DNA of 64,000 nt from a virus (lineage: Duplodnaviria > Caudoviricetes). Below the pieces are notes generated by a model. It ran no database searches, had not been told where the DNA came from, and worked only from the letters and a program-made list of their open reading frames with translations. The stretch lies in the IMG/VR virus record IMGVR_UViG_3300037722_000745, positions 192,001-256,000 of that record; one strand, written 5' to 3'. The position numbers and the translations under genes were made by a program. Shown piece after piece: positions 10,952 to 54,508 of this stretch (its first letter is position 1; every line of letters starts with the position of its first letter).

Positions 10952-13900
10952 TCACTAGCGGATGGTCGTGTTTGATCCCAGAGAACATCTCCTGAAACTG
11001 CGATTCCGAGATCTCTTCGTACGGAGCTTGAGCATAGCCGTGGGCTTTCGCCAACAAGCTCGTGGATTTAAACCGAGGCACGTACTTCGCCAGCAGCTCC
11101 GCCGTGCGCTCCCTTTCGGTCTCGGGATTGAACGAGAGCGTAGCGGAGACAGAATTGTCCGCCCACCACTCCTGGATCAACGCCTGCCGCTCGAATTGGT
11201 CGTCAATCGTCTCAGTCTGCACAGTCACCCGCGTGTGGACCGCCTTGGTCGGGAACGAGAACACAAGCGTGTGCCCGGTCTGGTCGTAAACATCGTACTC
11301 CCACGCAACCCCAGCCTCTTGTAGCGCTCTAGTCATAGGCTCATTGACGGCCAACCGAGCCCGACGGATGTAGTACGGGGCGAAAGGTGCGTGAATGCCA
11401 GGGCTGCTGGAGTTGAGCAGGCTGATCGTCCCAGAAGGCTTGGTCGTCGTGACCGCGTTCGGGCGGGCTACCCCCAGCTCATCGGCGTAGGAGTTGGCCT
11501 CCAGCCGGCACACCTCGAACCAACGAGCGAGCTGAGGTCCGACCCAGTCGAAATCACAGATGCCACCGAGTCCGACGCCCAAACGCATGTTCTTGCGACG
11601 CACCTCGTCCGACTCCTCATCCAGCAACGGAGTCAGACGCTGGCGCAGACAATAACGGGTGAGCAGGCGGAACACAGTGCCTGGATCGGTCGAACCGTCG
11701 AATTGCGCCGGAAATGCTTCTGCTAGGTTACAAGCTTCTCGATTGTGCAAGGGAATTTCGCCGCATTGTCGCACACTTACGCCTGAAAACCAGAATTTGT
11801 CTAGATTTTTGTGCTCCTTCGTTATTACAGACACAGTGTGGTTTTCGTCCACCGTGAGGTTGTAGACCGTGTGCTCTCCTTCCAGCTCCTCCACACGCGC
11901 AACCTTGTGGTTGTAATCGGACGCAGCTTCCAAGACCTCCGAGAACTTCTTGAAGCCGTGCTTGAGTGTCGGCCCGATACGGGAAGGCACCCCTTCCCCT
12001 TTGCAAGCCAAGGACCATTCCTTGCGATTCGGGTGGCGTCCTAGCCTGAAAGCCAGATCAGAACAAACACGAGCCTGCTCCACTTTGGTCGCGACCTGCT
12101 TGGACCCGTAGTGCGTGTCCATCGCCTGAAGCCGTTTCGCTTTGACCTTCGCGTCACTGTTGATATAGGCGTTGCCACAAGCTTCTGAGCAAAAGGATCG
12201 CTCACGATAGGAATGCTCCACCTCAAACGAGGCCGAACACCCTTCACAAGACTTGACCACAAAGACCTTGGAGTCTTTGATGAAAGCTTCGTACCCTTGT
12301 TCCAACATGGAGCAGAGCGTTTTGATGACACGTGGATCGGTGTCGACGTGCTCCAAGCCAAGCTCCGAAGCACATTGCTTGGCTAGCTCCACAACAGACT
12401 TCCAGGATCGATAGCCAGAGAAGGCTTGCGGGATACCCTGTGCCGAGGCGTACTCCAGCCAATCCTTCTTGCTGAATCGGCGTCCCAATTTACGAGTCAA
12501 CGTCAGACCATGATCCTTCAACTCACCACAGGTCAAACCTGACCAACGACCATTCGCCTCGCCAGAGTTGTCTTTCTCTCCGTGCAACTTGGCGTGATCA
12601 CGAAAAGTCATGATCTGGAGGTTATCAGGAGCGTTGTTCAGCTGATCGTAGTCCTTATGGTGGACTACAAGGCCGCCAGTGTTCGCGAACCCGTTCTCCG
12701 CACATACCGAATAGACCCGATCCCAGCCATCCGGGTCCTGGAAACAAGCAATCAAGCGATGCTCAAATATCTTGTCTCGATCCGGGTGACGCGTGTTGCA
12801 GTAAATACGATAATAGTCCTTACCTCCCTTCTTAACCTTCTCCAGAGCCTTCTTGAAACGCGGCAAACTGTCCCCAGGTTGGAGATCTTTCGCCTCTACT
12901 GGAGTACCATCACGTAGCAAGAAACCGTGGTTCGGCGTGGTGTCTAGGTGACTACCATCATCCAACCACACCCGGACAAGCTTTTGGTTGTAGCCTGTGA
13001 TCCGGGGGTTACGACCCATCTTGATCTCGATCTTGCCGGTCTCCTTGTTCAGGGAGTAAACCGGCACGTCCTCGCCCTCCTCCGCGAGCTGGCGGATCGA
13101 GACAGAATTGCGACCGTCTGCCACGGCGATCTTCGTGTCTCCAGAAAAACACGGATTGATGACGGTGGCCCCAGGATCGGTCTTGCGGATGAGCGCCAGG
13201 TTCAGCAGACCGGGCTCCCCGTAGAGGATGTTGTCCTCGACCATCCCATGCCAATCGAACTCGGCAATCTGCTTGTCTGTGTAAAACAGCAGCGAGTTGT
13301 TGCTGGTGTGCCGATGAGACTTCACAGCTTCGAAGTCCTTCTTCGCGTCCCGGAAAGGCCGATCCTCCGCGTCGCCCAAAACGATCAAGGCTGACCGGCG
13401 GACATTACCGGACTTCACACAGAACCCGATCAAGTTGGTGATATCGAGGCACTCAACGCTCGTCAAGCCGCGTCCCACCGCTCCACGCACGATGTCCCAC
13501 GAAAACCTCAGCAGCATCGACAGCGGGCCCGGACCGCACGCAACACCTCCAAACGTACGAATAGGCTCGCCCCGAGGGCGGATGTCCGAAAGGTCTACGA
13601 TGATATCCCGACCTTCGAAAGCCGCCTGGAGAACGAGACGCAAGGACTCTACCCACCCCTCACGTGAGTCAGGGATCTGGTGGACCGGGGTCTGACCGTT
13701 CAGGAACTCTTTGTCATTGGGCCCCACATCCTCAACGTTAGGATGATCATGGCGGCACCACACCGCCATGCGTGAGGAACCTGATCCTGCACTGACCTTT
13801 CCCAGCAAGCCGAGGGATCCCAATCCCACCCCGACGCCTCCGCCCAACATCAACTGGTTCATCACCCAACACCAGTCGTCGATCGAGCGGAGCGTGACTC

Positions 13901-23971: not shown

Positions 23972-25375
23972 TCAATCCGCGCCCTTGAGGTTCGAGACCG
24001 GGTAAAGCCGGTGTTCAACTCTCGCAATCCCCTCCGCCTCTAGAACGGCGAGAACCGCGTCGAGATCCTTGTAGACGTGCCCGCACTCATCAAGCGGCGT
24101 CTTCTTGTGATTGCCCACGATCCCCTCGATCTGGACGCCGCCGAAGGTTCGCTTGACGCTCGCCATCTCGTTGTCGATTCGAGCCTGCTTGTGCCCCAGC
24201 CGGCGCTTCGCTTCTGAGCGGCCTAAGATCCGACCCGAACCGTGGTTCACCGAGCAGGCGGACTTGTAGGCCCCATCTCCCGGGAACAGGATCGCAGCAC
24301 CTTCGTACATCGAGCCCGGAATGAGGCACGGGTGACCCGTAGTCTCCCACGCCGTCCCTACCAGGTCAGGATGCCCTGCCGGAAAGGCTCGGGTTGCTCC
24401 CTTCCGATGCACGAAGCCCCGCTTGTGGGTCCCGTCGGGCAGCACAAGGGTCTCTTCCTGCACCAGGTTGTGGCTGATCTCGTAGTAGACTTCGAGGTCA
24501 GCGTTGAACACTTCCTGCGTCGCCTCTTGAACCCCCACCACGATCTGATGACGGTTCGCGACCGCGAAGTTGGCCGCCGAGTTGTGGTAAGCCCAGTACT
24601 CTCGACCAAGAGGCTCATCTATTCGAAGCCAGGAATCCTCTCGACGGTTCTTCGGTAACCCCCGGAGAGCGGCCCCTTCGTAGAAGAAGTGGTTCGCCGT
24701 CTGCCAACCGTAGCCCCGCGACCCACAGTGGACCATCACCCAAACCGACCCGTCATCTCGATCGACTTGCATCTCGATGAAGTGGTTGCCGCCACCCACG
24801 CTACCGAGCTGGTCGGACACCTTCGAGTAGGCTTTCTCGATGTGACTTAGATCCAACGTCTCCGGGATCGGGATGTACCGCCGCTCACAGAGCGCCTCGT
24901 TGATCCCCAAAGACTTGGCCCCATATCGAAGCACCTCGTCGACCTGACGAGAGCCCAGCCGCCTCATGAGGGCAGGCCGCTCGGACCCTACGCCGGTCGC
25001 CACCCGCTTCTCGACTTCCTCGACCCACTGCTGACGCTTGTGCCGACTCCGAACCGCCTTGGCTCCAAGGTTCACTTTCATGCAAAGAGCCCCGCACGAG
25101 ATGTCGTAGCCCGAGCCGCCCTGGATGATCGTGTCTTCAGTCACGATGACCGAGCCGACCGGCACGCCGTATCCCCTGTGGCAATCCGGCATCAGGTACG
25201 CCCCAATGACCCCCTCGTAGGACGCCCCGTTCGCGATCTGCTGCCAGACCGACTCTTCCGACGCCGCATAAAGGTCATCCGACAAAAAGGCATGAGCCTC
25301 CACCCGCATCTGCCCAACGCGGGGCAGCACGTAGTGATTGTCGCTGACCTTCTGAGCCTGGTACTTGAAAGACAT
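23972..25375 (-). CDS. rtcB: RtcB RNA ligase
   Basis: MPDCHRGYGVPVG, GYDISCG, GSVGGGNHFIE, MVHCGSRG, SHN, HRKGATRA, NHGSGR. Confidence 0.95.
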   Translation of the reverse strand: MSFKYQAQKVSDNHYVLPRVGQMRVEAHAFLSDDLYAASEESVWQQIANGASYEGVIGAYLMPDCHRGYGVPVGSVIVTEDTIIQGGSGYDISCGALCMKVNLGAKAVRSRHKRQQWVEEVEKRVATGVGSERPALMRRLGSRQVDEVLRYGAKSLGINEALCERRYIPIPETLDLSHIEKAYSKVSDQLGSVGGGNHFIEMQVDRDDGSVWVMVHCGSRGYGWQTANHFFYEGAALRGLPKNRREDSWLRIDEPLGREYWAYHNSAANFAVANRHQIVVGVQEATQEVFNADLEVYYEISHNLVQEETLVLPDGTHKRGFVHRKGATRAFPAGHPDLVGTAWETTGHPCLIPGSMYEGAAILFPGDGAYKSACSVNHGSGRILGRSEAKRRLGHKQARIDNEMASVKRTFGGVQIEGIVGNHKKTPLDECGHVYKDLDAVLAVLEAEGIARVEHRLYPVSNLKGAD

Positions 25376-25598: not shown

Positions 25599-25704
25599 GG
25601 GGCTCCAATTAGGAATGGGGCGACAGCCGAAGCCGCCGCCCCATACCGTCTCAGATTGACAGGGTCGGGTGGCCGTCTTCGAGCCACACTGGTTACGTTA
25701 CCGC

Positions 25705-26179
25705 GTCTCGCCGCAGCGAGCAATCAGGATCGGTCCCCAGCGGCTGATTCCTGCCGGAGGCAGTCACGCCTACTCCGCGTCTCGCCGCAGCGAGCAATCA
25801 GGATCGGTCCCCAGCTGATCATCACGATTCAGCTGCCGGCATCCGCTTCAAGTCTCGCCGCAGCGAGCAATCAGGATCGGTCCCCAGGACGTCCTCGAGA
25901 TCAACGGCAACGAGTACGACGCGAGGTCTCGCCGCAGCGAGCAATCAGGATCGGTCCCCAGCTACGGCGTCCGACGTGATGAGCGTGGCCGCGAGAACGT
26001 CTCGCCGCAGCGAGCAATCAGGATCGGTCCCCAGCAGCGTGCGAGCTGCGGATCGGTGGCTGCAGCCTTGTGTCTCGCCGCAGCGAGCAATCAGGATCGG
26101 TCCCCAGCTGCAAAAACTGGACTTCGCGTTATATGCCGTCCTCGTCTCGCCGCAGCGAGCAATCAGGATCGGTCCCCAG
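25705..26179 (-). CRISPR. Type V (Cas12j) CRISPR array: 7 repeats, 6 spacers (36-38 nt)
   Basis: Identical 36-nt repeat CTGGGGACCGATCCTGATTGCTCGCTGCGGCGAGAC with 3' hairpin CTCGC/GCGAG, 128 bp downstream of cas12j. Confidence 0.98.
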
Positions 26180-26307: not shown

Positions 26308-28464
26308 TCACTCAGCCGCGAGAGACTCCAGGGGGGTAGACGCCACTGAGGCTCTCGCGGCTTTCCGGAGGGATACACCAGTGATGGCTACCATCGCGAT
26401 ATTATAGGCAGCCACATCGATGTCCGCGTTCCCACGGTACCCGCAACAAACACATATGAAAGCTTCACGATTGACTCGGTCTCGATTGGCCTTGTCACAG
26501 TGCCCGCACTCGGGGCACGTCCGTGATGTATTATACGGATCCACTTTGATCACCCGATAGCCTCGGTGCACAGCCAAGTCGCAGAACGCTCCGAAGAGAG
26601 CGTCCATGAGCCACCGCCCTTCCTGTTTGGCTGCGAAGAAACCACCCCACCCTGACTTACGGCTCCCCTTCCCGCCTCTACGGAAGCTGTGATGAAGGTC
26701 CTCGACCGCTACGATGACCTTTCCGCACTGAGCCCGCTTCTCGGCTGTCCTAATGACGTAGTTGACGCAGTGTCGCGACAACTCCTTCTTGCGGATGGAT
26801 AGCTGGTGGTACTTCGAGCTGTTCCTTTCAGCCTCCCATTTGGCTTCGTTCAGTGCCTTGCGGGTCTCGGATGTCAGTTGAGGCCGAAAATGCTGAGCCC
26901 AGTTCACGTCCCATCTCTTGCGAATCTCGGTCTTCCGCTTTTTCCCTTTACCCTTGAAGAAGGGGAACATGTAGAGCGTGTCGTCCACACCACGTTCCTT
27001 CGCCAAGTCAGATAGAATAGAGCTTCGACTGTTCACCTTGTCCCAGGGTACTTCATCCACCGATAGCCCGAGATGGCCACACACCTGCATCTTGGCTTGC
27101 TCTGGTCCGAAGGTATCCAACGCCAACACCTCCGCTTGTTGTTCGGCGGTCAGAGAGCGTACGGCTGCTAACCGCAAATTCTCTTGGTGCTTGTCATACG
27201 CCTTACGAAACCGGAAGAAGTCCTCTACAGTCTGCTCCGGTAACGTAAAAGCCTGCAACCGTTCTACGCACTTCCCTGGACGAATCCGTAGCGCATTCGC
27301 AGCGATCAAGTTGTTGACGCCTAGATCGACACCTACGAGGCTAAACGTCTCCGTGGTGTCATCTAGCATCTTCGACACATAGGATCCCTTCACAACCTTG
27401 GCCTTGACGACCGGCACGACCCCTTGCTTATAGATCAACGTGGCGGTGTAACGTACCGGCTTGCCCGGCTTCTTCACTACACTCAACGTGGGGTCATTCG
27501 TCACCAGATTCAGAAGACTCTCAATCGTCACCGGCACCGATCGGTCTAACAATTTGCGGTACTGTGTGTTGCGGAGAAGCCCTCGGAGATCGAGAAGTGC
27601 CCAGTCATCAGCTACCCTAACGACCGCCAACAACATGTTGTCGTCGATCGCCCCACCACGTGAGCGTGCCCAAGAAGCCCGTTTCCGACGGTGCTTCTTA
27701 ACGGAAAGATTTTCTCGATCCCATGGGGGTACATACCCCGGTTGACCTTCAGGTATCTCTAGCCGATCTACACCACAAGCGGCGATGGGTGTTGACGGAT
27801 CTCGGCTATAACCCGTCACCCCAGGAATGGACCCAGGCACATAGGGCTTCAACTTCATATGCTGGTACCCAAACACGCTACAGTTGATCCCCGGGCGGTG
27901 CCGCAGATGACCTGTCTCATCGAGGGCCGTTTCAGGTTCGTCGAGTGTTAGAAGAGGTAGGCCACGTTCTGCCCGATGCTCGTTCCGCTGTTCAATCTTT
28001 GCTACCTTTTTGCTGTTGCGATTCTCAACCTTCTTGAGAACCCCCTCGTAGGTGGCCCGAGCGTTTTGGAAAATCAGGTTGAGACCTTGGACATTGAAGT
28101 ACCCGTCCGTGTCCACCCGCGTAGCCTTAAGCCAGGCCCTAAGCCCTGCTTCAGACTTCCCAGGATCCGTAGCCTTGAACTCCTCGTAACTCTGAGCATA
28201 GACGTACTTCTGGATCACCACCGACGCTTTGTAGATCGGCCACTCCTCCAAAGGCCGACTCATCGCCACGATGTTACACTTCACCGGAGGTTTGAAATTA
28301 GGCTGTGTTGTGCCCCCCTTTCCTTCAAGAAAGGCCACAGCAGCGCCTTCGCCTTTCGACTTGAGGATCCTACCAGCCTGCCTCGAGTCATGTTTTTTGA
28401 ACCGCAGCCCAGGGAAGGACTTCTTACAGAGGGCGACGAGTGGGGTTTCCTTTTTGTCTGGCAC
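26308..28464 (-). CDS. cas12j: Cas12j (CasPhi) type V effector, 718 aa
   Basis: Split RuvC (VGVDLG, VAVEDL, NADIDVAAYNIA), Zn ribbon CPECGHC..C..C, and NVQGLNLIFQNAR and C-terminal LAAE segments recalled from CasPhi-1; adjacent array; no cas1/cas2 in the window. Confidence 0.93.
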   Translation of the reverse strand: MPDKKETPLVALCKKSFPGLRFKKHDSRQAGRILKSKGEGAAVAFLEGKGGTTQPNFKPPVKCNIVAMSRPLEEWPIYKASVVIQKYVYAQSYEEFKATDPGKSEAGLRAWLKATRVDTDGYFNVQGLNLIFQNARATYEGVLKKVENRNSKKVAKIEQRNEHRAERGLPLLTLDEPETALDETGHLRHRPGINCSVFGYQHMKLKPYVPGSIPGVTGYSRDPSTPIAACGVDRLEIPEGQPGYVPPWDRENLSVKKHRRKRASWARSRGGAIDDNMLLAVVRVADDWALLDLRGLLRNTQYRKLLDRSVPVTIESLLNLVTNDPTLSVVKKPGKPVRYTATLIYKQGVVPVVKAKVVKGSYVSKMLDDTTETFSLVGVDLGVNNLIAANALRIRPGKCVERLQAFTLPEQTVEDFFRFRKAYDKHQENLRLAAVRSLTAEQQAEVLALDTFGPEQAKMQVCGHLGLSVDEVPWDKVNSRSSILSDLAKERGVDDTLYMFPFFKGKGKKRKTEIRKRWDVNWAQHFRPQLTSETRKALNEAKWEAERNSSKYHQLSIRKKELSRHCVNYVIRTAEKRAQCGKVIVAVEDLHHSFRRGGKGSRKSGWGGFFAAKQEGRWLMDALFGAFCDLAVHRGYRVIKVDPYNTSRTCPECGHCDKANRDRVNREAFICVCCGYRGNADIDVAAYNIAMVAITGVSLRKAARASVASTPLESLAAE

Positions 28465-32637: not shown

Positions 32638-32975
32638 ATAACCTCAGTTCAGCGCGGACAAGCCACGCTGTTGGACAGCTGTAACAGCTCCCTTTCGAAC
32701 ATACTGTACGATTCCCTGCGGGCTAATACACAGATCCTCAATAGAAAACCTGACGGCTGCCTTACAACAACTGCGACCCCAACCCGCACTCAGTGCTCGA
32801 CGACCCGCTTGATCACAAGAGCAACGACCGCAATTGAGGCACACGTAAACCTGCTCTTCAGGAACGGCCATAGCATTCCCTCTCCCACACTACACCACGA
32901 AGCACCCTATGAAAGAATTACATCAACGGTGTTCATCTTATCCCCGTGCCTAAAAGGACCGTGCCTAAAAGGACC

Positions 32976-33650: not shown

Positions 33651-33726
33651 TGGTGGACCTGGTCGGAATTGAACCGACGACTTCTACCGTGTCGAGGTAG
33701 CACTCTGGCCGCTGAGTTACAGGTCC
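33651..33726 (-). tRNA. tRNA-Val(GAC)
   Basis: Cloverleaf, CCA encoded. Confidence 0.9.
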
Positions 33727-36496: not shown

Positions 36497-36544
36497 TGTC
36501 AGGACGTGGGATCGAACCACGCTGGCTTCCAAACAAGTCCTGAC
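36497..36544 (-). other. tRNA-like minihelix (acceptor plus T arm, no D arm) fused to a repeat
   Basis: GTCAGGA...CGTGG-TTCGATC-CCACG-TCCTGAC-A. Confidence 0.6.
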
Positions 36545-36563
36545 GTCTCGCCGCAGCGAGCAA
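36545..36563 (-). repeat. Solitary Cas12j-family repeat (3' 19 nt)
   Basis: gtctcgccgcagcgagcaa. Confidence 0.85.
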
Positions 36564-38912: not shown

Positions 38913-39863
38913 CTAACCCACATGCCGAAACACTACAAGACGACCTTCCCGCTCCGCCTGGCGAATGACCGGCGGCAGAGATTCTAAACTCAACCAAGCA
39001 TCCCCGCGGGTGCCGCCCGCAAAATCCGTGTCGTCGTAGTGTGCCGTCAGACAGATGCCCGCGTCGATGATCTGTAGAGTCCGAGCGTCGCATGTGCACT
39101 CGTAACGCCGCCCACCCATCCGGAACCGCACGACCATCTCGTTGCGTCGCGGGGCCTGCCGGTGATCGAGATACTCAGCCTCACCAACCGCGAGAGCCGC
39201 CCGAGCCGCGGTCCCGAAATCCTCTTGGGCCAACGCCCGCCGGCCAGCACCATCACCGAGCTGCTCCGCGATCTCCCGACGACGGGTTTCCCGCTGCCGT
39301 TCCTCTTCCTCACGCTGAAGGCGTTCCGCCAGCTCCCGCCGACGCCGCTCCGCCTCCAACCGCCGCCACCGCTCAAGCGTGAAGGCGACATCCAAAGCCG
39401 GCGACACCTCTCGGATATCAGCTAGCGTATCCTTGCCGTCCAGAAAGGCCGTCTGCACCTCGAACTCGGGCCCCAGAGGCATTTCTTGCTGGATGTAGAC
39501 CAACGGGCCGTCCTCGGACACGCGGCCCGCAGAGACCCGTACGAAGCGATCTAGGCCCGGTTCGATGAGATGGACCCGCTCCGTCTCGCTCTTAAAGGAG
39601 GCGAGCTTCCTTTGCGAAGCCGACACGAGCCGATCGCCGACCAGGTAGCCTACCTCTCGGTACTTGAGCTGCTCCGGCTCGGGATCACACACCTCCTGGA
39701 CCCGAGCCGTCCGACCGCCCACCGAGAACCGAACCCAGCCATGCTCCGCCGGCAGCCGACCCTCGATCACCCACCGACGTGGGCCCGACCGGAGGGACCT
39801 ACCCCCAATCCAAGGCGCGACAAGCGTCTCGCCTTCAGTCGCAAGTAAGTCTCTCCAACCCAT
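38913..39863 (-). CDS. Putative E2-like (UBC-fold) protein containing an in-frame CRISPR repeat
   Basis: C-terminal IIDAGICL (candidate catalytic Cys); operon with JAB, Ubl and E1. Confidence 0.6.
   Translation of the reverse strand: MGWRDLLATEGETLVAPWIGGRSLRSGPRRWVIEGRLPAEHGWVRFSVGGRTARVQEVCDPEPEQLKYREVGYLVGDRLVSASQRKLASFKSETERVHLIEPGLDRFVRVSAGRVSEDGPLVYIQQEMPLGPEFEVQTAFLDGKDTLADIREVSPALDVAFTLERWRRLEAERRRRELAERLQREEEERQRETRRREIAEQLGDGAGRRALAQEDFGTAARAALAVGEAEYLDHRQAPRRNEMVVRFRMGGRRYECTCDARTLQIIDAGICLTAHYDDTDFAGGTRGDAWLSLESLPPVIRQAEREGRLVVFRHVG
39583..39618 (-). repeat. Solitary family-2 repeat inside a CDS
   Basis: gtctcgctcttaaaggaggcgagcttcctttgcgaa encodes SQRKLASFKSET. Confidence 0.88.
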
Positions 39864-40329: not shown

Positions 40330-40713
40330 CTACCAGACGACGCCCCCACCTCGTTTTTCAAGCCGGCCCGCAGAGACCCGTACAAAGCGATCTAGGCCCG
40401 GTTCGATGAGATGGACCCGCTCCGCAGCACGGAGAACCTCCCCGTCCGCTTGTCCAGCCTGAACCGAGGACGGTACGAGGCGATCTCCAACGAGATAGCC
40501 AACCTGCCTGTGCCACAGGCTTTCTAACTCAGGTTCGGCCAGAGCCTTGACCTGAGCCTTACGTCCCTCCAACGCAAACTCAATCCAGCCATGCTCTACA
40601 GGAAGGCTCCCCTCGATGACCCAGCGACGGGAGCCCGACCGGAGGGACCGGCCCCCAACCCAAGGTGCGACAATCGTCTCACCTTCTTTCTGAAGTAGGG
40701 TCCTCCAAGTCAT
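40330..40713 (-). pseudogene. Truncated paralog of the E2-like gene (N-terminal 127 aa)
   Basis: APWVGGRSLRSG, EHGW, YLVGDRLV and ERVHLIEPGLDRFVRVSAGR shared with the E2-like gene. Confidence 0.8.
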
Positions 40714-48944: not shown

Positions 48945-49022
48945 TGGAGGCGCAGGCGGGACTCGAACCCACGAAAATACCTGTTTTGCAGACAGGCCCC
49001 TTAGCCGCTTGGGTACTGCGCC
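48945..49022 (-). tRNA. tRNA-Cys(GCA)
   Basis: Cloverleaf, U73-CCA. Confidence 0.9.
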
Positions 49023-49067
49023 GAAACCTTCACCTACTAGAAGACGAGAACGCCGAAGCGTTACAAG

Positions 49068-49138
49068 TGCGCGTGGAGGGGATCGAACCCTCATCTGCTG
49101 GGTGGAAGCCAGCTATCCTACCATTGAACGACACACGC
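49068..49138 (-). tRNA. tRNA-Gly(TCC)
   Basis: Cloverleaf. Confidence 0.85.
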
Positions 49139-49214
49139 TTATGCCCCGTAGTTGGCGGCCTCCCAAGGCAAAAGTCAGAACTCACAAGGCGGCGGAAGCT
49201 GTACTTCTCTCAGC

Positions 49215-49442
49215 TTAGGAGGTCTTTGTGTGTCTTTTGTACTGACCGGAATTGGCTCCGTATTCACGTTTGATCCAATTAGCAGGTCCTATTTTCAAGG
49301 CACCCTTGACTTGGCCCGAGTTCGCACCGAACTCTTTCTTGATCCACGCCAAGGCTTTAGCGTCTTGTTCCTTCGTATGCGCTGCTGTTCGAAGAGCTAG
49401 CTCGACAAGCTTCGTAGCAATTTCGACCCTACTGGGATTCAC
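49215..49442 (-). CDS. Hypothetical protein with internal repeat
   Basis: WIKKEFGANSGQVK / WIKREYGANSGQYK. Confidence 0.55.
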   Translation of the reverse strand: MNPSRVEIATKLVELALRTAAHTKEQDAKALAWIKKEFGANSGQVKGALKIGPANWIKREYGANSGQYKRHTKTS

Positions 49443-50051
49443 GCCTTGGCTGTAGGCAAGAATTTAACGAAGCTCAGACTGTAACTCTTGAGGGGTCGAA
49501 ATTTTGCGCATAACACCATAGAAAAGCCATAAATGGCTTAGCAGCTTACCTTGAAGGCTGGCACCCAGGACATCGAACTCGAAGCTTATGGGGAGCAACC
49601 CCACATGGAAAGAGTGTTCGGGATCCTCTGCGCATGCTCGGGCCAATCCTTGAACTTGTCGCCGTAGTTCTCTCGACACAACCGAGTGATCGCGATGTGA
49701 GAACTGAGACACACAGACATGATCTTACGCGTCTCCCTGGCACTCAATCCAGAAGCCGTAGGCCCAGACCTCCACAGAGCCGACAACTCCTCCTCACTAA
49801 GAGGAGCTTCCAGACTCCCTCCCAAATCGGACAAGGAAGCGTCAATATCCGCTGTAGAGGCCATCTCTCGGGTTTTTGATTGTGTTTCTGATGGGCGGAA
49901 TATACACCGCAGGCAGCATGCCCCCGAGCGCCCAAAGCGGAAGCCGGAGAACTCGAATCCCAAACGACCCCGAGAGGCCGTTCCCACCGCTTTCCAAGCG
50001 GGTCCAGTCCCTAACTGGTTCAGCTTCCAAGGGGAGCCTGTTGAGGGAATC

Positions 50052-50158
50052 GTCTCGCCGCAGCGAGCAATGAGTGCATGACTACACCAAGCCAACAAGC
50101 GCTGATGGAAGCAGGCCAGTTGCGTGACTACGTAGTGGACCTGTCGGGAGTTGAACCC
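50052..50158 (-). repeat. 107-bp duplication (copy A) ending in a 20-nt Cas12j-family half repeat
   Basis: 2 mismatches versus 51439-51545. Confidence 0.9.
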
Positions 50159-50212
50159 CGATCCCGGTTACCACCGTACCAAGGTGGTGCTCTGCCACTG
50201 AGCTATACGGGC
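50136..50212 (-). pseudogene. Chimeric tRNA: Thr(GGT) 5' part plus Ala(TGC) 3' end
   Basis: GCCCGTA does not pair with CAGGTCC; T arm and 3' end match 51520-51545. Confidence 0.7.
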
Positions 50213-50547
50213 GTTGAACCGAAAGACAACCCTCTCTCTAGCTTGCCTCCTAGACTCCATATCGCGTAAGGCATGCCTCAGAATTTGAAGGTTGACGATC
50301 GCATCGTAAAGCTCCCGCTCCTTCGCTCCGCTGTCTATAAGCCTCTCTAGTTTATCGATCTCTCGTCGGATCCGATTCCGATCTTGCAAACGCTTAGGGA
50401 GCCGCAAGCCTGTGGTCCGATCCTGACGCTCAACCTTCCTAAGTTGCTGCTCGATATAGTCCACCTCTTTTGGGGTCAAGGATCGAGGCAGTAGTCCAGG
50501 CCGAGGGAAAGTCACCTCAAAAGGACGGTCCGGTTTGGGTACCGGCA

Positions 50548-51054
50548 TCAGATCTGACCTAACACCTTTCGAACCAACCGCATGAACGTCAGTCCAGCGA
50601 GTTCAGGATCTGTGCTGAATGCGGTCTCCGTGATAGACCGTTTGAAGTCAGCTCCGCTCAAGGGTTTGTGAGGCACATACCCGAACGAAAGTAACGGAAG
50701 ACCGCCCCGGATTGACAACATCAACGTGAAGGTCTCCAAAGCGGGTCGAGTGGAGAAGTAGTAGTACAGCTTCATCCGCTGCTGGGTAGCATTCATGTAG
50801 AAACGATCGCCATGGAACTTCCGCCTGAATGCTGAAAGGGCCTTGGGTAAGAGGATCTCGATAGACAACTTGGCCGCATCAAAGACCTCTTGCGCAGACG
50901 TTGGCACCCCGACTTCAGGAGGACCCCAACGAGCTTGCCGGGCCATCCTCTCGGACCACGGAACGACCCATGACGGGATTTCCGGCTGCCAGTCCCCAAG
51001 GGCTACCTGGTAACCCCACCTGGCCGCCACGCGCTTTGCAAGAGTACCCATCAC
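50548..51054 (-). CDS. Hypothetical protein
   Basis: 168-aa ORF with N-terminal AKRVAARW. Confidence 0.6.
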   Translation of the reverse strand: MMGTLAKRVAARWGYQVALGDWQPEIPSWVVPWSERMARQARWGPPEVGVPTSAQEVFDAAKLSIEILLPKALSAFRRKFHGDRFYMNATQQRMKLYYYFSTRPALETFTLMLSIRGGLPLLSFGYVPHKPLSGADFKRSITETAFSTDPELAGLTFMRLVRKVLGQI

Positions 51055-51084
51055 CTCGTGCAGTGTGATGGGTAGATTAGTGAG

Positions 51085-51158
51085 GCTACCTGACGGGACT
51101 CGAACCCGCTCTCACCGGACCCACAATCCGGCCGCCATCCTATCGGCGCTCAGGCAGC
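51085..51158 (-). tRNA. tRNA-His(GTG)
   Basis: G-1:C73, loop TT-GTG-GG. Confidence 0.8.
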
Positions 51159-51258
51159 AGAAGTATCACAACGGTCCCGGGCCGGGTGCGACGAGCTAGC
51201 CACACGCGCCGAGTAGCTAGCTCGGACGCGCTGCGTTCTGTGCCCCGTTGTGACACGG

Positions 51259-51341
51259 TGCGAACGAGAGGAGTCGAACCTCCACGACCTCGCGATCAGC
51301 TGGGTTTGAGCCAGCCGCGTCTGCCATTCCGCCACGTTCGC
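51259..51341 (-). tRNA. tRNA-Leu(CAA)
   Basis: Class II cloverleaf. Confidence 0.9.
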
Positions 51342-51355
51342 GTGAGCACTACTCA

Positions 51356-51391
51356 GTCTCGCTCTTAGGGGAGGCGAGCTTCCTTTGATCC
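51356..51391 (-). repeat. Solitary family-2 repeat variant
   Basis: gtctcgctcttaggggaggcgagcttcctttgatcc; stem CTCGC/GCGAG. Confidence 0.78.
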
Positions 51392-51438
51392 CATACAGGA
51401 AATCCTTCTTGCAAGCTACGGTGCTGGAGACAGGAGTC

Positions 51439-51545
51439 GTCTCGCCGCAGCGAGCAATGAGTGTATGACTACACCAAGCCAACAAGCGCTGATGGAAGCA
51501 GGCCAGTTGCGTGACTACGTGGTGGACCTGTCGGGAGTTGAACCC
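51439..51545 (-). repeat. 107-bp duplication (copy B) ending in a 20-nt Cas12j-family half repeat
   Basis: See copy A. Confidence 0.9.
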
Positions 51546-51591
51546 GCAAACTCTCCTTGCAAGGGAGAGCCCTGACCCGTCAGACAAGCCC
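51520..51591 (-). tRNA. tRNA-Ala(TGC)
   Basis: G3:U70, CCA, atypical D arm. Confidence 0.75.
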
Positions 51592-51596
51592 ATTTA

Positions 51597-51676
51597 GGTC
51601 CGAGGCGAATTGTCGACTCCGCGTCTCCAGCTTCCGTACGCAATAGCTGGCGCTCTAACACTGAGCTACTCGAACC
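51597..51676 (-). other. tRNA-like element with 12-nt anticodon loop and degenerate T loop
   Basis: Acceptor GGTTCGAG/CTCGGACC; stem CCAGCT/AGCTGG around ATTGCGTACGGA. Confidence 0.5.
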
Positions 51677-51678
51677 AG

Positions 51679-51750
51679 CGGAGCCGAGGGGACTCGAACC
51701 CCCCTCACTGGCGTGACAAGCCAGCCGCCTCACCCGATGCGTACGGCTCC
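51679..51750 (-). tRNA. tRNA-Asp(GTC)
   Basis: Cloverleaf, G73. Confidence 0.85.
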
Positions 51751-51754
51751 GTAA

Positions 51755-52009
51755 GTCCCACTCTTGATGGAGGTGGGCTTCCGTTGTGACCGTGCGGATT
51801 TCGGAGATGACGCTGAAGCCGTCATCGGTCCCACTCTTGATGGAGGTGGGCTTCCGTTGTGACTTCGCTCCGATCGCAATCCCGCAGGATCGCGACCAGC
51901 CGTCCCACTCTTGATGGAGGTGGGCTTCCGTTGCTGCCAGGCAGGACGGCTCGAAGTGGCTAAGATGATGTTGGTCCCACTCTTGATGGAGGTGGGCTTC
52001 CGTTGCTGC
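51755..52009 (-). CRISPR. Second CRISPR array (family 2): 4 repeats, 3 spacers (36-38 nt), no adjacent cas gene
   Basis: 36-nt repeat GTCAC/GCAGC-AACGGAAGCCCACCTCCATCAAGAGTGGGAC; leader-like region 52010-52160. Confidence 0.95.
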
Positions 52010-52356
52010 AGTGCGCTCAAAAAGACCTAAAATTTCCAAAGAGCTGAGAGCCGGATTGCGAGAGCCTCTGCAAACTCCCGCTAAATCCGACTCCATGGAG
52101 AGTACTACACTGTTCACAGAGAGCGCAAGACCCTAAATTCATTGTCTTGCGAGCGATCCCCGGGCTCCAGGCGTCACCGAGGCTCTCGCGTTCCGATGCC
52201 GTCCAACAAGGAAACTCCACGTCCCGGCGAAGAGTTGAGAGCATGGGCAGTACCGTGCCCACAAGGGCCAGTCCTCTCGCTCAACCCCGCGAAGTCGAGC
52301 TGTTTCAGGAATGTGACACGGGTTTTGGTTGATGCTGGCCAAACATGACTACCCAG

Positions 52357-52432
52357 TGGAGCCGGCGGGGATCGAACCCGCCGCAAAGCCGCATTGCAAG
52401 TGCAGCTCGCCCCCGCCAACCGATACGGCTGA
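52357..52432 (-). pseudogene. Degenerate tRNA-Ala(TGC)
   Basis: T arm and anticodon intact, 5' end eroded. Confidence 0.55.
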
Positions 52433-52440
52433 GGGGTATC

Positions 52441-52833
52441 TCACCGAAGAGATGACGGCTCATAAAGTGTCAATAGCTCCTTTGCCCAATCTACGAGGTC
52501 CGACACCCTCGCGCCGGTAGGTTGCGGACTTCGCCACAACTCCAGGTTGCACGGTCTGTTGTCGTCCCTAACCCCGTTCTTGTGGTGTACCGTCTCACCC
52601 GGCAAGAGATAGCGGCCAAGGACTTCCTCCATCACAAGGATGTGCTCAAACACGTACGGACCGCTTGTAGCCCTAGGGTGCAGCGGAACTCGCCGCATCA
52701 CGTATCGAATCGGATCGCCGCACCCAAGGCAGGGTACCTTTGGGAGAGATCGCCGCCGACACATCGGGCATTTCCGATGTCTGCTACTTGGTGTGAAAAG
52801 TCTGCAACACGAGCTACAAGTTTTGACAGCCAT
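52441..52833 (-). CDS. HNH homing endonuclease
   Basis: YVFEHILVMEEVLGRYL..VHHKNGVRDDNRPCNLELW. Confidence 0.85.
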   Translation of the reverse strand: MAVKTCSSCCRLFTPSSRHRKCPMCRRRSLPKVPCLGCGDPIRYVMRRVPLHPRATSGPYVFEHILVMEEVLGRYLLPGETVHHKNGVRDDNRPCNLELWRSPQPTGARVSDLVDWAKELLTLYEPSSLR

Positions 52834-53399: not shown

Positions 53400-53625
53400 T
53401 TAGCTACGCCAGCAGAAAACGCTAGAGTTCTCACACCGGTCCGCACTCTAGCAGCGGCCCTACATACCCCGGGCCGCCAGCCTAGCTTGGCAGCCCACCA
53501 GGGGCCTGGTGTCAGGCGGGACGCCGTCCGAATACCTCAGAGCTTTTGACCGGGCTAGAGAGCCCAAGATGAGGGTCATCGTTCAGCATCGACCGGTGGA
53601 GAAAATGGTAGCGACGGAGGGAGTC

Positions 53626-53647
53626 GTCTCGCCTCAGCGAGCAATCA
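53626..53647 (-). repeat. Solitary Cas12j-family repeat (3' 22 nt) fused to a tRNA 3' end
   Basis: gtctcgcctcagcgagcaatca; followed on the minus strand by GACTCCCTCCGTCGCTACCA. Confidence 0.88.
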
Positions 53648-54216: not shown

Positions 54217-54236
54217 TTGTTTGGTTGCGGGAGCCG

Positions 54237-54264
54237 GTCTCGCTCTTTCAGGTGGCGAGCTACC
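54237..54264 (-). repeat. Degenerate solitary family-2 repeat between duplicated tRNA-fMet 3' ends
   Basis: 24/28 to the 54941 variant; 14-bp direct repeat at 54224-54237 and 54281-54294. Confidence 0.72.
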
Positions 54265-54281
54265 ACGGTTTTTCAAACCAG

Positions 54282-54353
54282 TTGCGGGAGCCGGAATCGA
54301 ACCGACGAGGCTTGGGTTATGAGCCCGAGTTGAGGGCCAACACTCTTCCCGCG
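54282..54353 (-). tRNA. Initiator tRNA-fMet(CAT)
   Basis: C1xA72 mismatch, GGG/CCC anticodon stem. Confidence 0.85.
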
Positions 54354-54427: not shown

Positions 54428-54431
54428 GTTG

Positions 54432-54472
54432 TGGTGGGTCCTCTCGGGATCGAACCGAGTTCTCCGATTTTT
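54432..54472 (-). pseudogene. tRNA 3' half (from the anticodon loop to CCA) fused to a repeat
   Basis: AAAAATCGG-AGAA-CTCGG-TTCGATC-CCGAG-AGGACCC-ACCA. Confidence 0.75.
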
Positions 54473-54508
54473 GTCTCACTCTTGTAGGGGGTGAGCTTCC
54501 CTTACTCC
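54473..54508 (-). repeat. Solitary family-2 repeat variant
   Basis: gtctcactcttgtagggggtgagcttccctt; stem CTCAC/GTGAG. Confidence 0.78.

What the first reader, a model, noticed from the sequence alone, without database searches (positions are those of the whole stretch)
50052..51545. The same 107-bp handle cassette is joined to two different tRNA-derived spacers
Seen: [tRNA-Ala 3' end + about 60 nt + half repeat] is duplicated with 2 mismatches. Each copy is followed by a different tRNA tail, and copy A creates a Thr/Ala chimeric tRNA. Inference: the handle plus its upstream flank moves as a unit and is re-targeted, so it behaves like a tiny mobile guide cassette rather than a one-off scar.
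Basis: partly seen in the sequence, partly recalled or inferred. Interest (0 to 1): 0.66.

Follow-up and report, generated by a model that had tools for sequence, protein, structure and literature searches.

The report
Duplicated CasPhi handle patch in tRNA array
In a huge phage that carries its own CasPhi (Cas12j) nuclease, a 113-base piece (end of a tRNA-Ala gene, a trailer, and the RNA handle that CasPhi grips) was copied once into the T-loop of a neighbouring tRNA-Thr gene and killed it; this looks like a single repair scar, not a jumping guide cassette, though lone CasPhi handles inside tRNA operons are worth an RNA experiment.

Summary
Window 50046-50158 and 51433-51545 are 113-nt direct repeats with 3 mismatches. 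On the minus strand each reads tRNA 3' end, about 62-66 nt trailer, then the last 19-25 nt of the repeat of the phage's own CasPhi-2-like array. Different tRNA 3' tails follow, each starting at T-loop position 57.

Copy B is native: tRNA-Ala pairs 7/7 with it and keeps CCA. Copy A is derived: tRNA-Thr(GGU) pairs 3/7 and has CTA instead of CCA.

The "mobile, re-targeted guide cassette" reading is poorly supported.
- The 323-kb contig holds only these two full copies, plus one 45-nt partial copy.
- Both ends of the copied tract lie in T-arm sequence.
- The tails look like remains of resident tRNA genes. Relatives without handles have Thr(GGU)-Ile(UAU)-Ser(GGA) at that place.
- No tRNA gene with either tail was found in IMG/VR or GTDB genomes.

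Best reading: a one-off break repair or gene conversion that carried the handle as a passenger.

One thing remains interesting. Lone CasPhi handles are enriched in this tRNA operon, and the only lone handle of an unrelated CasPhi phage also lies in its tRNA array.

The parts
51433..51545 (-). Copy B of the 113-nt repeat (donor): 3' end of tRNA-Ala with CCA, trailer, CasPhi handle, first 6 nt of tail B
   Evidence: tRNA-Ala acceptor pairs 7/7 with this tail, including G3:U70
50046..50158 (-). Copy A of the 113-nt repeat (derived), pasted into the T-loop of tRNA-Thr(GGU); CCA has become CTA
50052..50070 (-). CasPhi crRNA handle core of copy A (TTGCTCGCTGCGGCGAGAC)
   Evidence: 19/19 identical to the 3' end of the array repeat; covers positions -19 to -1, including the C-1, A-2, G-17 and U-18 contacts described for CasPhi3
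51439..51457 (-). CasPhi crRNA handle core of copy B
50029..50051 (-). Tail A: tRNA 3' end from T-loop position 57 (GATTCCCTC AACAGGC T CC) plus 4 nt, directly before tRNA-Ser(GGA)
   Evidence: ends GGCTCC like the Thr tRNAs; first 10 nt equal the L005 tRNA-Ile(UAU) tail
51420..51438 (-). Tail B: tRNA 3' end from position 57 (GACTCCTGT CTCCAGC A CC); best match is tRNA-Leu(CAG) of relatives
   Evidence: 16/19 to L005 Leu(CAG); acceptor 6/7 to L006/L007 Leu(CAG)
50137..50213 (-). tRNA-Thr(GGU) pseudogene: native 5' 50-57 nt plus the Ala-type tail
   Evidence: its 5' acceptor strand GCCCGTA is identical to L007 Thr(GGU), whose own tail is TGCGGGC
51520..51591 (-). tRNA-Ala(UGC), intact acceptor stem and CCA, unusually small D-loop
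   Evidence: not reported by Rfam at the gathering score
49937..50028 (-). tRNA-Ser(GGA), whose RNase P site would set the 3' end of any RNA made from handle A
   Evidence: the RNase P processing is inferred
51356..51392 (-). Solitary long-loop repeat (family C variant), 14 nt before tRNA-Leu(CAA)
50548..51054 (-). Conserved ORF (168 aa, no known family) between the two copies; used to find syntenic relatives
25701..26179 (-). CasPhi CRISPR array, 7 repeats of CTGGGGACCGATCCTGATTGCTCGCTGCGGCGAGAC
26308..28464 (-). casPhi (cas12j) gene, 718 aa, RuvC residues conserved
   Evidence: (E 2e-159 to CasPhi-2, PDB 7lys)
53606..53644 (-). Third, independent handle-to-tail fusion at position 57 (loop variant TGAG, different upstream flank; tail GACTCCCTCCGTCGCTACCA)
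   Evidence: 17/18 to tRNA-Leu(CAA) of relative L005, preceded there by TTC

Best explanation
Setting (shown): the window lies in a 323-kb contig of an uncultured huge phage. The phage encodes an intact CasPhi-2-like nuclease with a 7-repeat array, and an operon of 42 tRNA genes plus a tmRNA gene on the minus strand.

Copy B (shown): it is the native arrangement, an intact tRNA-Ala, its trailer, and a lone CasPhi half-repeat (the crRNA handle) fused to the remnant of a former tRNA gene.

Copy A (inferred): it arose once. A break or replication stall in the T-loop of tRNA-Thr(GGU) was repaired off the nearest look-alike, the T-arm of tRNA-Ala. Synthesis ran through the Ala tail, the trailer and the handle. 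It stopped when it reached the T-loop remnant (CGAYTCC) of tail B, which annealed to the other broken end. This is synthesis-dependent annealing or a microhomology-mediated template switch.

Consequences: the handle was a passenger. tRNA-Thr(GGU) was destroyed. The 'new spacer' is simply the resident tRNA tail left at the recipient site.

Fate of the RNA (inferred, not shown): the handle is complete and sits inside the tRNA operon, so the transcript is probably bound and cut by CasPhi and trimmed at the next tRNA by RNase P.
For: - Only two full copies exist in the contig; the third copy shares 45 nt.
- Donor and recipient can be told apart. Ala pairs 7/7 and keeps CCA; Thr pairs 3/7 and has CTA.
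- The native 5' acceptor strand of Thr equals that of relative L007, whose tail is different.
- Left junction...CCGGGATCG|GGGTTCAAC, inside the T-arm. Right end: the CGA of a T-loop, and the only nearby mismatch is T-loop position 59.
- Relatives L005, L006 and L007 have tRNA arrays in the same gene order. None has a hairpin of either repeat family, and in L006 and L007 tRNA-Ile(UAU) abuts Ser(GGA).
- Tail A ends GGCTCC like all Thr tRNAs here. Tail B is closest to Leu(CAG). This phage lacks Ile(UAU) and Leu(CAG).
- No intact tRNA gene with TTC plus either tail occurs in 2.9 million viral contigs or 185,579 species genomes.
- The trailer has no significant fold, no tRNA similarity and no promoter match.
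- The handle is genuine: 19/19 to the array repeat next to a CasPhi gene.
Against: - The tract ends within 2 nt of where a crRNA spacer would begin, which is also what a guide cassette would show.
- At least two handle-to-tail fusions with different handle variants and flanks (copy B and window 53626) share the same junction at position 57, right after the universal TTC, a valid T-rich CasPhi PAM. Repair of copy A does not explain how the first such junction arose.
- Tail A differs at about 4 of 12 stem positions from the tail expected for this Thr gene, so which resident gene it comes from is not settled.
- No break-making enzyme was shown to cut T-loops.
- No close relative was available to show the empty site.
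Confidence: 0.6

Rival explanations
1. Functional anti-tRNA-gene guides. The handle-plus-tail units are working CasPhi crRNAs, co-transcribed with the tRNAs. CasPhi cuts them on the 5' side and RNase P, or the next repeat, trims the 3' side. Their guides are tRNA 3' ends that start right after the T-loop TTC (the PAM), aimed at tRNA genes of rival phages or the host. The duplication made a second guide without Cas1-Cas2.
For: - Three fusions all start at position 57, after an inferred TTC.
- The handle core covers every contact described for CasPhi3.
- Handle A is followed by 23 nt and then a tRNA 5' end, which would give a crRNA-sized product.
- Relative G005 has a five-unit mini-array built of half repeats only, and a lone half repeat just behind a TTGACT-17-TATCCA promoter-like site.
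- The complete 529-kb CasPhi phage G003 has a single lone half repeat, and it lies inside its tRNA array on the tRNA strand.
- 13 of 20 lone handles of this contig lie in the 7% that is the tRNA region, all on the tRNA strand.
- The tail at window 53626 matches tRNA-Leu(CAA) of relative L005 at 17/18, with TTC in front.
- No Cas1 was found in the contig.
Against: - No exact target for tail A or tail B in IMG/VR or GTDB genomes.
- The tails sit where resident tRNA genes are expected, which descent explains without any targeting.
- Similarity to relatives' tRNAs is also expected from common descent.
- The enrichment is partly due to the tRNA region holding much of the non-coding DNA.
- A long-loop lone repeat at window 39583 is followed by a 62-nt copy of the phage's own sequence that has TGC in front. 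That would be a lethal self-target if such units were active guides.
- There is no RNA evidence.
Confidence: 0.2
2. Mobile guide cassette. The tRNA-Ala end, the linker and the handle form a small element that transposes or is copied as a unit to new sites and so acquires new guides.
For: - Two copies with the same ends, and a partial third copy at contig 11450-11494.
- The tract ends at the handle/spacer border.
Against: - Two copies do not make a family, and the third shares only 45 nt and no tRNA end.
- There are no terminal inverted repeats, no defined target duplication and no transposase nearby. ORF126 and ORF168 have no family, and there is no rve in the contig.
- The ends lie in generic tRNA homology.
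- Neither the handle core nor a related cassette was found in IMG/VR.
Confidence: 0.08
3. Scar of self-targeting. A CasPhi guide matching a tRNA tail cut the phage's own tRNA gene. Survivors repaired the break off the guide locus, which replaced the TTC PAM by the end of the repeat (GAC). This would explain the junctions at position 57.
For: - The junctions lie exactly at the border between the inferred PAM and the protospacer.
- Two long-loop lone repeats are followed by copies of nearby sequence that start right after TTC (window 54237) or TGC (window 39583) in the source.
- The RuvC residues of CasPhi are intact.
Against: - It is purely inferential.
- The duplicated lengths (13 and 62 nt) do not fit a fixed cut site.
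- It is not known whether the long-loop repeat is read by this CasPhi.
- Copy A itself is explained without it.
Confidence: 0.08
4. Assembly artefact. The 113-nt repeat is a collapsed or mis-joined repeat in a metagenome assembly.
For: The contig is a metagenome assembly rated 68% complete, and no reads were available.
Against: - The copies differ at 3 positions, and each is embedded in unique sequence.
- The repeat is shorter than a read pair.
- Gene order on both outer flanks follows relatives (Ala upstream; Ser(GGA)-Gly-Cys-Arg downstream).
- Swapping the flanks would give a circular contradiction.
Confidence: 0.04

Closest known systems
CasPhi / Cas12j (type V-J) crRNA of huge phages (CasPhi-2, PDB 7lys; CasPhi3 structure preprint 10.1101/2021.06.27.449965)
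   Same: - The effector is 718 aa with E 2e-159 to CasPhi-2.
- The repeat ends in ATTGC-stem-loop-stem-GAC, like the repeats of four other CasPhi phages.
- The 19-nt core kept in the cassette covers the handle positions that the protein contacts.
   Different: - Here the handle stands alone, without the 5' half of the repeat.
- It lies 24 kb from the array, inside a tRNA operon.
- It is followed by a tRNA remnant instead of a 36-38-nt spacer and a next repeat.
Viral solitary repeat units, mini-arrays and RNA anti-CRISPRs (Racr; Camara-Wilpert et al. 2023, PMC10651486; review PMC11656645)
   Same: A lone CRISPR repeat-like unit in a virus genome, outside any array.
   Different: - Described units mimic the host's repeats, are usually not linked to cas genes and often sit behind a promoter.
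- These match the phage's own CasPhi array, have no promoter match and are embedded among tRNAs.
- The Racr paper does not mention tRNA at all.
Delocalized crRNAs of CRISPR-associated transposons (types V-K and I-F3), as summarised in PMC11656645
   Same: A guide encoded outside the array, with only a partial match to the repeat and a spacer-like part related to a tRNA gene; the effector is of type V in the V-K case.
   Different: - No Tn7-like genes: no rve, and only a sub-threshold TniQ-like frame far away.
- The nuclease looks active.
- The 'spacer' is a resident gene remnant with no known target.
Engineered polycistronic tRNA-guide RNA arrays (my own knowledge: Xie et al. 2015; the use of tRNA processing for guide release is also the subject of PMC13370227, listed)
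   Same: A guide-like unit flanked by tRNAs, so that RNase P and RNase Z would release it from one long transcript.
   Different: That is a laboratory design for Cas9 or Cas12. A natural counterpart is only inferred here and has not been shown.
Ectopic gene conversion and rearrangement within tRNA gene arrays (general knowledge of recombination between repeated genes)
   Same: The exchange ends lie in the conserved T-arm. One gene's 3' end is overwritten by another's, giving a chimeric pseudo-tRNA.
   Different: The converted tract carries a CRISPR handle and about 60 nt of trailer, not just tRNA sequence.

Membership tests
CasPhi (Cas12j) crRNA handle | Sequence identity to the 3' part of the repeat of an array next to a cas12j gene in the same genome | tested here: met
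   19/19 nt to the 7-repeat array at window 25701-26179, which adjoins a 718-aa CasPhi-2 homologue
CasPhi (Cas12j) crRNA handle | Contains the hairpin and the flanking bases that the protein contacts (C-1, A-2, G-17, U-18 in CasPhi3) | tested here: met
   The core UUGCUCGCUGCGGCGAGAC has C-1, A-2, G-17 and U-18. This is a comparison with the text of 10.1101/2021.06.27.449965, not a structural test
CasPhi (Cas12j) crRNA handle | Followed by a guide whose target carries a T-rich PAM | tested here: inconclusive
   The tails start after the inferred T-loop TTC, but no target was found in IMG/VR or GTDB. One near match exists, for the 53626 tail only
CasPhi (Cas12j) crRNA handle | Transcribed, processed and loaded into the nuclease | not testable with these tools
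   No RNA data. Co-orientation with the tRNA operon is the only hint
Viral solitary repeat unit / Racr | Lone repeat outside an array in a virus genome | tested here: met
Viral solitary repeat unit / Racr | Mimics the host's CRISPR repeat and acts against the host's Cas proteins | tested here: not met
   It matches the phage's own CasPhi array. The host is unknown
Viral solitary repeat unit / Racr | Own promoter directly upstream | tested here: not met
   No sigma-70-like site in window 49000-52500. This is a consensus scan only
CAST delocalized crRNA | Linked Tn7-like transposition genes (tnsB, tnsC, tniQ) | tested here: not met
   No rve. The only TniQ-like frame scores 16 bits, below the cut-off, and lies 120 kb away. 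The contig is 68% complete
CAST delocalized crRNA | Nuclease-deficient effector | tested here: not met
   The RuvC D, E and D columns are invariant in the alignment and align to those of CasPhi-2
Small mobile element (MITE-like cassette) | Several copies with the same ends at unrelated sites | tested here: not met
   Two full copies, both at tRNA T-arms, and one 45-nt partial copy
Small mobile element (MITE-like cassette) | Terminal inverted repeats or a defined target-site duplication | tested here: not met
   None seen at the ends. At most 1-3 nt (CG/CGA) are shared at the junctions

The most novel reading that the evidence does not exclude
Guide birth without adaptation genes. In CasPhi phages, which lack Cas1-Cas2, recombination places a bare 19-nt handle directly in front of PAM-adjacent sequence. 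In tRNA genes that is the T-loop TTC. The tRNA operon then transcribes the unit, and CasPhi together with RNase P matures it. The result would be guides against the tRNA genes of rival phages or the host. The 113-nt duplication would be one such birth caught in the act.
Probability: 0.15. Interest if true: 0.8.

Novelty: new variant of a known kind. Interest (0 to 1): 0.4.

Why it matters
The duplication itself is ordinary: a repair scar that cost the phage one tRNA.

The setting is what matters. A virus-borne type V nuclease has its complete RNA handle scattered through the virus's own tRNA operon. The handle is fused to tRNA remnants at one fixed T-loop position, and the same placement occurs in an unrelated CasPhi phage.

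If those units are loaded into CasPhi, this would be a natural version of the tRNA-guide arrays that engineers build. It would also show how systems without Cas1-Cas2 could gain guides.

If they are not loaded, the locus still shows how CRISPR repeats spread and decay inside repeated gene arrays. It also warns against reading spacer-like matches next to lone repeats as targeting.

Tried and rejected
- Further copies: blastn-short of the cassette against the whole contig gave two full copies and one 45-nt copy. The exact handle core has no hit in IMG/VR.
- Close relatives: single-protein scans with ORF168 and CasPhi found nothing. GenBank phages gave nothing useful.
The other contigs that encode identical ORF168 (5 contigs) or CasPhi (3 contigs) could therefore not be fetched to look for an empty site.
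- Targets: TTC plus tail A or tail B had no exact match in viral contigs or GTDB genomes. Array spacers and tails had no significant match in the loci in hand, apart from the 53626 tail.
- Positive control that failed: a true array spacer of relative G004 begins GATTCC like a T-loop. Its 18-nt matches in four viral contigs lie in coding sequence, not in tRNAs, so this is chance.
- Trailer as tRNA remnant: local alignment to 102 tRNAs scored no better than shuffles.
- Linker complement: the 7-nt complement to tail A's acceptor strand in the linker occurs at chance frequency.
- Trailer as structured RNA or promoter: z-scores of -0.1, +0.3 and -1.3, and no promoter match.
- Second effector for the long-loop repeats: no paralogue of CasPhi among the ORFs. 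The only other TNB-domain frame is a 314-aa TnpB-like one. The 813-aa and 724-aa ORFs near arrays have no PDB or Pfam match.
- CAST-like homing: no rve, and TniQ only below the cut-off.
- Integrase attR reading of the tails: considered but not tested. It is not favoured because three different tails are each fused to a handle.
Full report
**What the window is.** The window is bases 192001-256000 of a single 323,174-bp virus contig with 56% G+C. IMG/VR classes it as linear and 68% complete. ARAGORN finds 42 tRNA genes and a tmRNA gene, all on the minus strand between window 32455 and 55829. Rfam confirms most of them.

The contig holds three kinds of CRISPR-like repeat:
- Four plus-strand arrays whose repeats end ...GTAATTGAAAC, all outside the window.
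- A 7-repeat minus-strand array at window 25701-26179, with repeat CTGGGGACCGATCCTGATTGCTCGCTGCGGCGAGAC (family B).
- A 4-repeat minus-strand array at window 51755-52009, with repeat ...CAACGGAAGCCCACCTCCATCAAGAGTGGGAC (family C).

Directly upstream of the family B array lies a 718-aa protein with a Cas12f1-like TNB domain. It gives E 2e-159 over its full length to CasPhi-2 (PDB 7lys). Its RuvC residues are conserved in an alignment with ten homologues. Family B is therefore the crRNA repeat of the phage's own CasPhi, read on the minus strand.

**The observation.** Window 50046-50158 and 51433-51545 are 113-nt direct repeats with three mismatches. On the minus strand each copy holds three parts:
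- The last 22-26 nt of a tRNA.
- A trailer of about 62-66 nt.
- cactcaTTGCTCGCTGCGGCGAGAC.

The last 19 nt equal the 3' end of the family B repeat. According to the CasPhi3 structure preprint, the protein holds the handle through C-1, U-18 and a G-17:A-2 pair. The conserved 19-nt core has exactly these bases, so it is a complete handle and not a random fragment.

Different tRNA 3' tails follow GAC, both beginning at T-loop position 57:
- Copy A: GATTCCCTC AACAGGC T CC, then 4 nt and tRNA-Ser(GGA).
- Copy B: GACTCCTGT CTCCAGC A CC, then 32 nt, a lone family C repeat, 14 nt and tRNA-Leu(CAA).

**Which copy is the original.**
- tRNA-Ala(UGC) at 51520-51591 pairs at 7 of 7 acceptor positions with the tail inside copy B, including the G3:U70 pair typical of alanine tRNAs, and it keeps CCA.
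- tRNA-Thr(GGU) at 50137-50213 pairs at only 3 of 7 positions with the same tail. Its CCA has become CTA, and it scores 33 bits in Rfam against 50-70 for most neighbours.
- The native 5' acceptor strand of this Thr gene, GCCCGTA, is identical to that of the Thr(GGU) gene of relative L007, whose own tail is TGCGGGC.

So copy B is the donor. Copy A overwrote or split a once normal tRNA-Thr(GGU).

**Where the tract begins and ends.** On the left, the Thr gene reads ...CCGGGATCG and then GGGTTCAACTCC..., the T-arm of tRNA-Ala. On the right, identity runs through GAC and GA. It breaks at T-loop position 59 (T in copy A, C in copy B), resumes for TCC, and then ends.

Both ends therefore lie in T-arm or T-loop sequence, the one stretch that all tRNA genes share. 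This is what repair of a break in a T-loop would give. The broken end copies from the nearest look-alike T-arm, runs on through the Ala tail, the trailer and the handle, and stops where the T-loop remnant of tail B can anneal to the other broken end. A double template switch at microhomology would give the same picture. An HNH endonuclease gene lies in the array at window 52441-52833. Whether it makes such breaks was not tested.

**Are the tails imported spacers or local remains?** Three related phage contigs were found through the conserved ORF between the copies. They carry tRNA arrays in the same gene order: tmRNA, Ala, ORF168, Val, Leu(CAG), Leu(GAG), His, Leu(CAA), Leu(UAA), Thr(GGU), Ile(UAU), Ser(GGA), then Gly, Cys and Arg. 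They contain no hairpin of either repeat family. In L006 and L007, Ile(UAU) abuts Ser(GGA) with gaps of 2 and 8 nt. The phage studied here lacks Ile(UAU), Leu(CAG) and Leu(UAG).

- Tail A sits 4 nt before Ser(GGA). Its first 10 nt equal the Ile(UAU) tail of L005. Its end, GGCTCC, is that of every Thr tRNA here and in the relatives, and it pairs at 5 of 7 positions with the Thr 5' strand. It is either the displaced tail of Thr itself or the tail of the next gene. I could not decide between the two.
- Tail B is closest to Leu(CAG) of the relatives (16/19 to L005; acceptor 6/7 to L006 and L007) and lies upstream of Leu(CAA), as Leu(CAG) does there.

Either way the tails are resident remains. In line with that, TTC plus tail A or tail B has no exact match in 2.9 million viral contigs or in 185,579 species genomes.

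**Is the cassette a recurrent unit?** No.
- A sensitive search of the contig finds only the two copies, plus a 45-nt piece (26 nt of trailer and the handle) at contig 11450-11494. That piece lies just past the stop codon of a plus-strand gene and is followed by the antisense of that gene's 3' end.
- Other lone family B handles, at window 32976, 36545, 43636 and 53626, share only the 19-22-nt core.
- The trailer is not significantly structured, does not resemble tRNA, and has no promoter match.
- The two ORFs between the copies belong to no known family.
- No transposase of the rve type is in the contig.

**What remains unexplained and interesting.**
1. The unit at window 53626 has a different handle variant (loop TGAG) and unrelated upstream sequence. 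It is nevertheless fused to a tRNA tail at the same position 57. At least two independent fusions therefore share a junction that lies right after the universal T-loop TTC, which fits the T-rich PAM of CasPhi. A second fusion landing on the same one of about 76 positions has a chance of roughly 1 in 76.
2. Two lone family C repeats are followed by exact copies of nearby upstream sequence:
   - 13 nt of the tRNA-Met tail at window 54237.
   - 62 nt with one mismatch at window 39583.

   In the source, these copies start right after TTC and TGC.
3. Counting strict family members, 13 of 20 lone handles lie in the tRNA region, which is 7.2% of the contig, all on the tRNA strand (binomial tail 7e-11 against a uniform spread). 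The caveat is that this region holds much of the non-coding DNA.
4. The family C hairpin shows compensatory changes at two of its five pairs and no one-sided change. It is therefore kept as a hairpin.
5. Four other CasPhi phages were found:
   - The complete 529-kb G003 has one lone half repeat, and it lies inside its tRNA array on the tRNA strand.
   - G005 has a five-unit mini-array built only of half repeats, and a lone half repeat just behind TTGACT-17-TATCCA.
   - G004 and G006 have none.

Half repeats therefore seem to serve as stand-alone units in this group of phages.

**Weighing.** For the duplication itself, a single ectopic repair event explains every feature and needs no new mechanism. 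I give it 0.6.

The idea that the handle-tail units are working guides against tRNA genes stays open at about 0.2. Its PAM phase and the comparative data speak for it. Against it are the lack of any target, the local origin of the tails, and the would-be lethal 62-nt self-match at window 39583.

**Comparison with what is known.**
- Lone repeats and mini-arrays in viruses are known. They are read as RNA anti-CRISPRs or as weapons against related viruses (PMC10651486, PMC11656645). Those mimic host repeats; these match the phage's own CasPhi array.
- Delocalized crRNAs of CRISPR-associated transposons combine a partial repeat with a guide to a site near a tRNA gene. Here there are no transposition genes, and the nuclease looks active.
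- I found no paper in the searched library that describes Cas12j handles inside tRNA arrays or fused to tRNA ends.

Earlier notes of this scan flag the same handles on this same genome. I used them as leads only. One tool, the look-up of encoding contigs, was closed, so near-identical contigs could not be compared.

Noticed in passing
window 39521-39619 and 40347-40408: A lone long-loop repeat (family C, stem variant CTCGC/GCGAG) is followed by a 62-nt copy, with 1 mismatch, of sequence lying 825 nt upstream. In the source that sequence is preceded by TGC. It is either an insertion with a long flanking duplication or a would-be self-target.
   Followed up: partly
window 54224-54294: tRNA-Met(CAU) is followed by 7 nt, a family C variant repeat, and then a second copy of the last 13 nt of the tRNA. 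Only this second copy has CCA. In the tRNA the copied part starts right after TTC.
   Followed up: partly
L014:1001-1019 (G003, a complete 529-kb CasPhi phage): The only lone CasPhi half repeat of this unrelated phage lies inside its tRNA array, on the tRNA strand, between tRNA-Gln and tRNA-Asn.
   Followed up: partly
L012:2652-2874 and L015:1001-1021 (G005): There is a mini-array of five half repeats (20-21 nt, spacing 46-59) just upstream of casPhi. A lone half repeat also sits directly behind a TTGACT-17-TATCCA promoter-like site.
   Followed up: no
window 23972-25375: An RtcB RNA ligase gene (E 7e-87) lies directly downstream of the CasPhi array.
   Followed up: no
window 51520-51591 and 52356-52432: Both tRNA-Ala(UGC) calls are odd and are missed by Rfam at the gathering score. 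The first has a 3-nt D-loop. Its tail is nearly the same as that of tRNA-Val(GAC) at window 33651-33726.
   Followed up: no
window 36497-36545 and 54430-54473: Lone handles are followed by tRNA-like half molecules, each with a T-arm and an acceptor 3' strand. At 36545 the piece can form an acceptor/T-arm minihelix.
   Followed up: no
window 32946-32975: The handle at window 32976 is followed by two tandem copies of GGTCCTTTTAGGCAC.
   Followed up: no
contig 1-258, 61334-61811, 64596-65525, 120213-121203 (L001, L002, L004): Four plus-strand arrays have repeats ending GTAATTGAAAC and share a leader of about 55 nt. No Cas1 and no matching effector were found in the contig. The contig begins inside one of these arrays.
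   Followed up: partly
contig 121287-121694 (L004:2287-2694), minus strand: A 216-aa frame next to one of those arrays gives a weak TniQ-like match (16 bits, E 0.002, below the cut-off).
   Followed up: no
contig 292895-293092 (L008): This is the second TNB-domain hit of the contig (88 bits), in a 314-aa frame. It is probably a TnpB-like gene or a fragment of one.
   Followed up: no
contig 322996-323174: The contig ends in tandem repeats with a 52-nt period.
   Followed up: no
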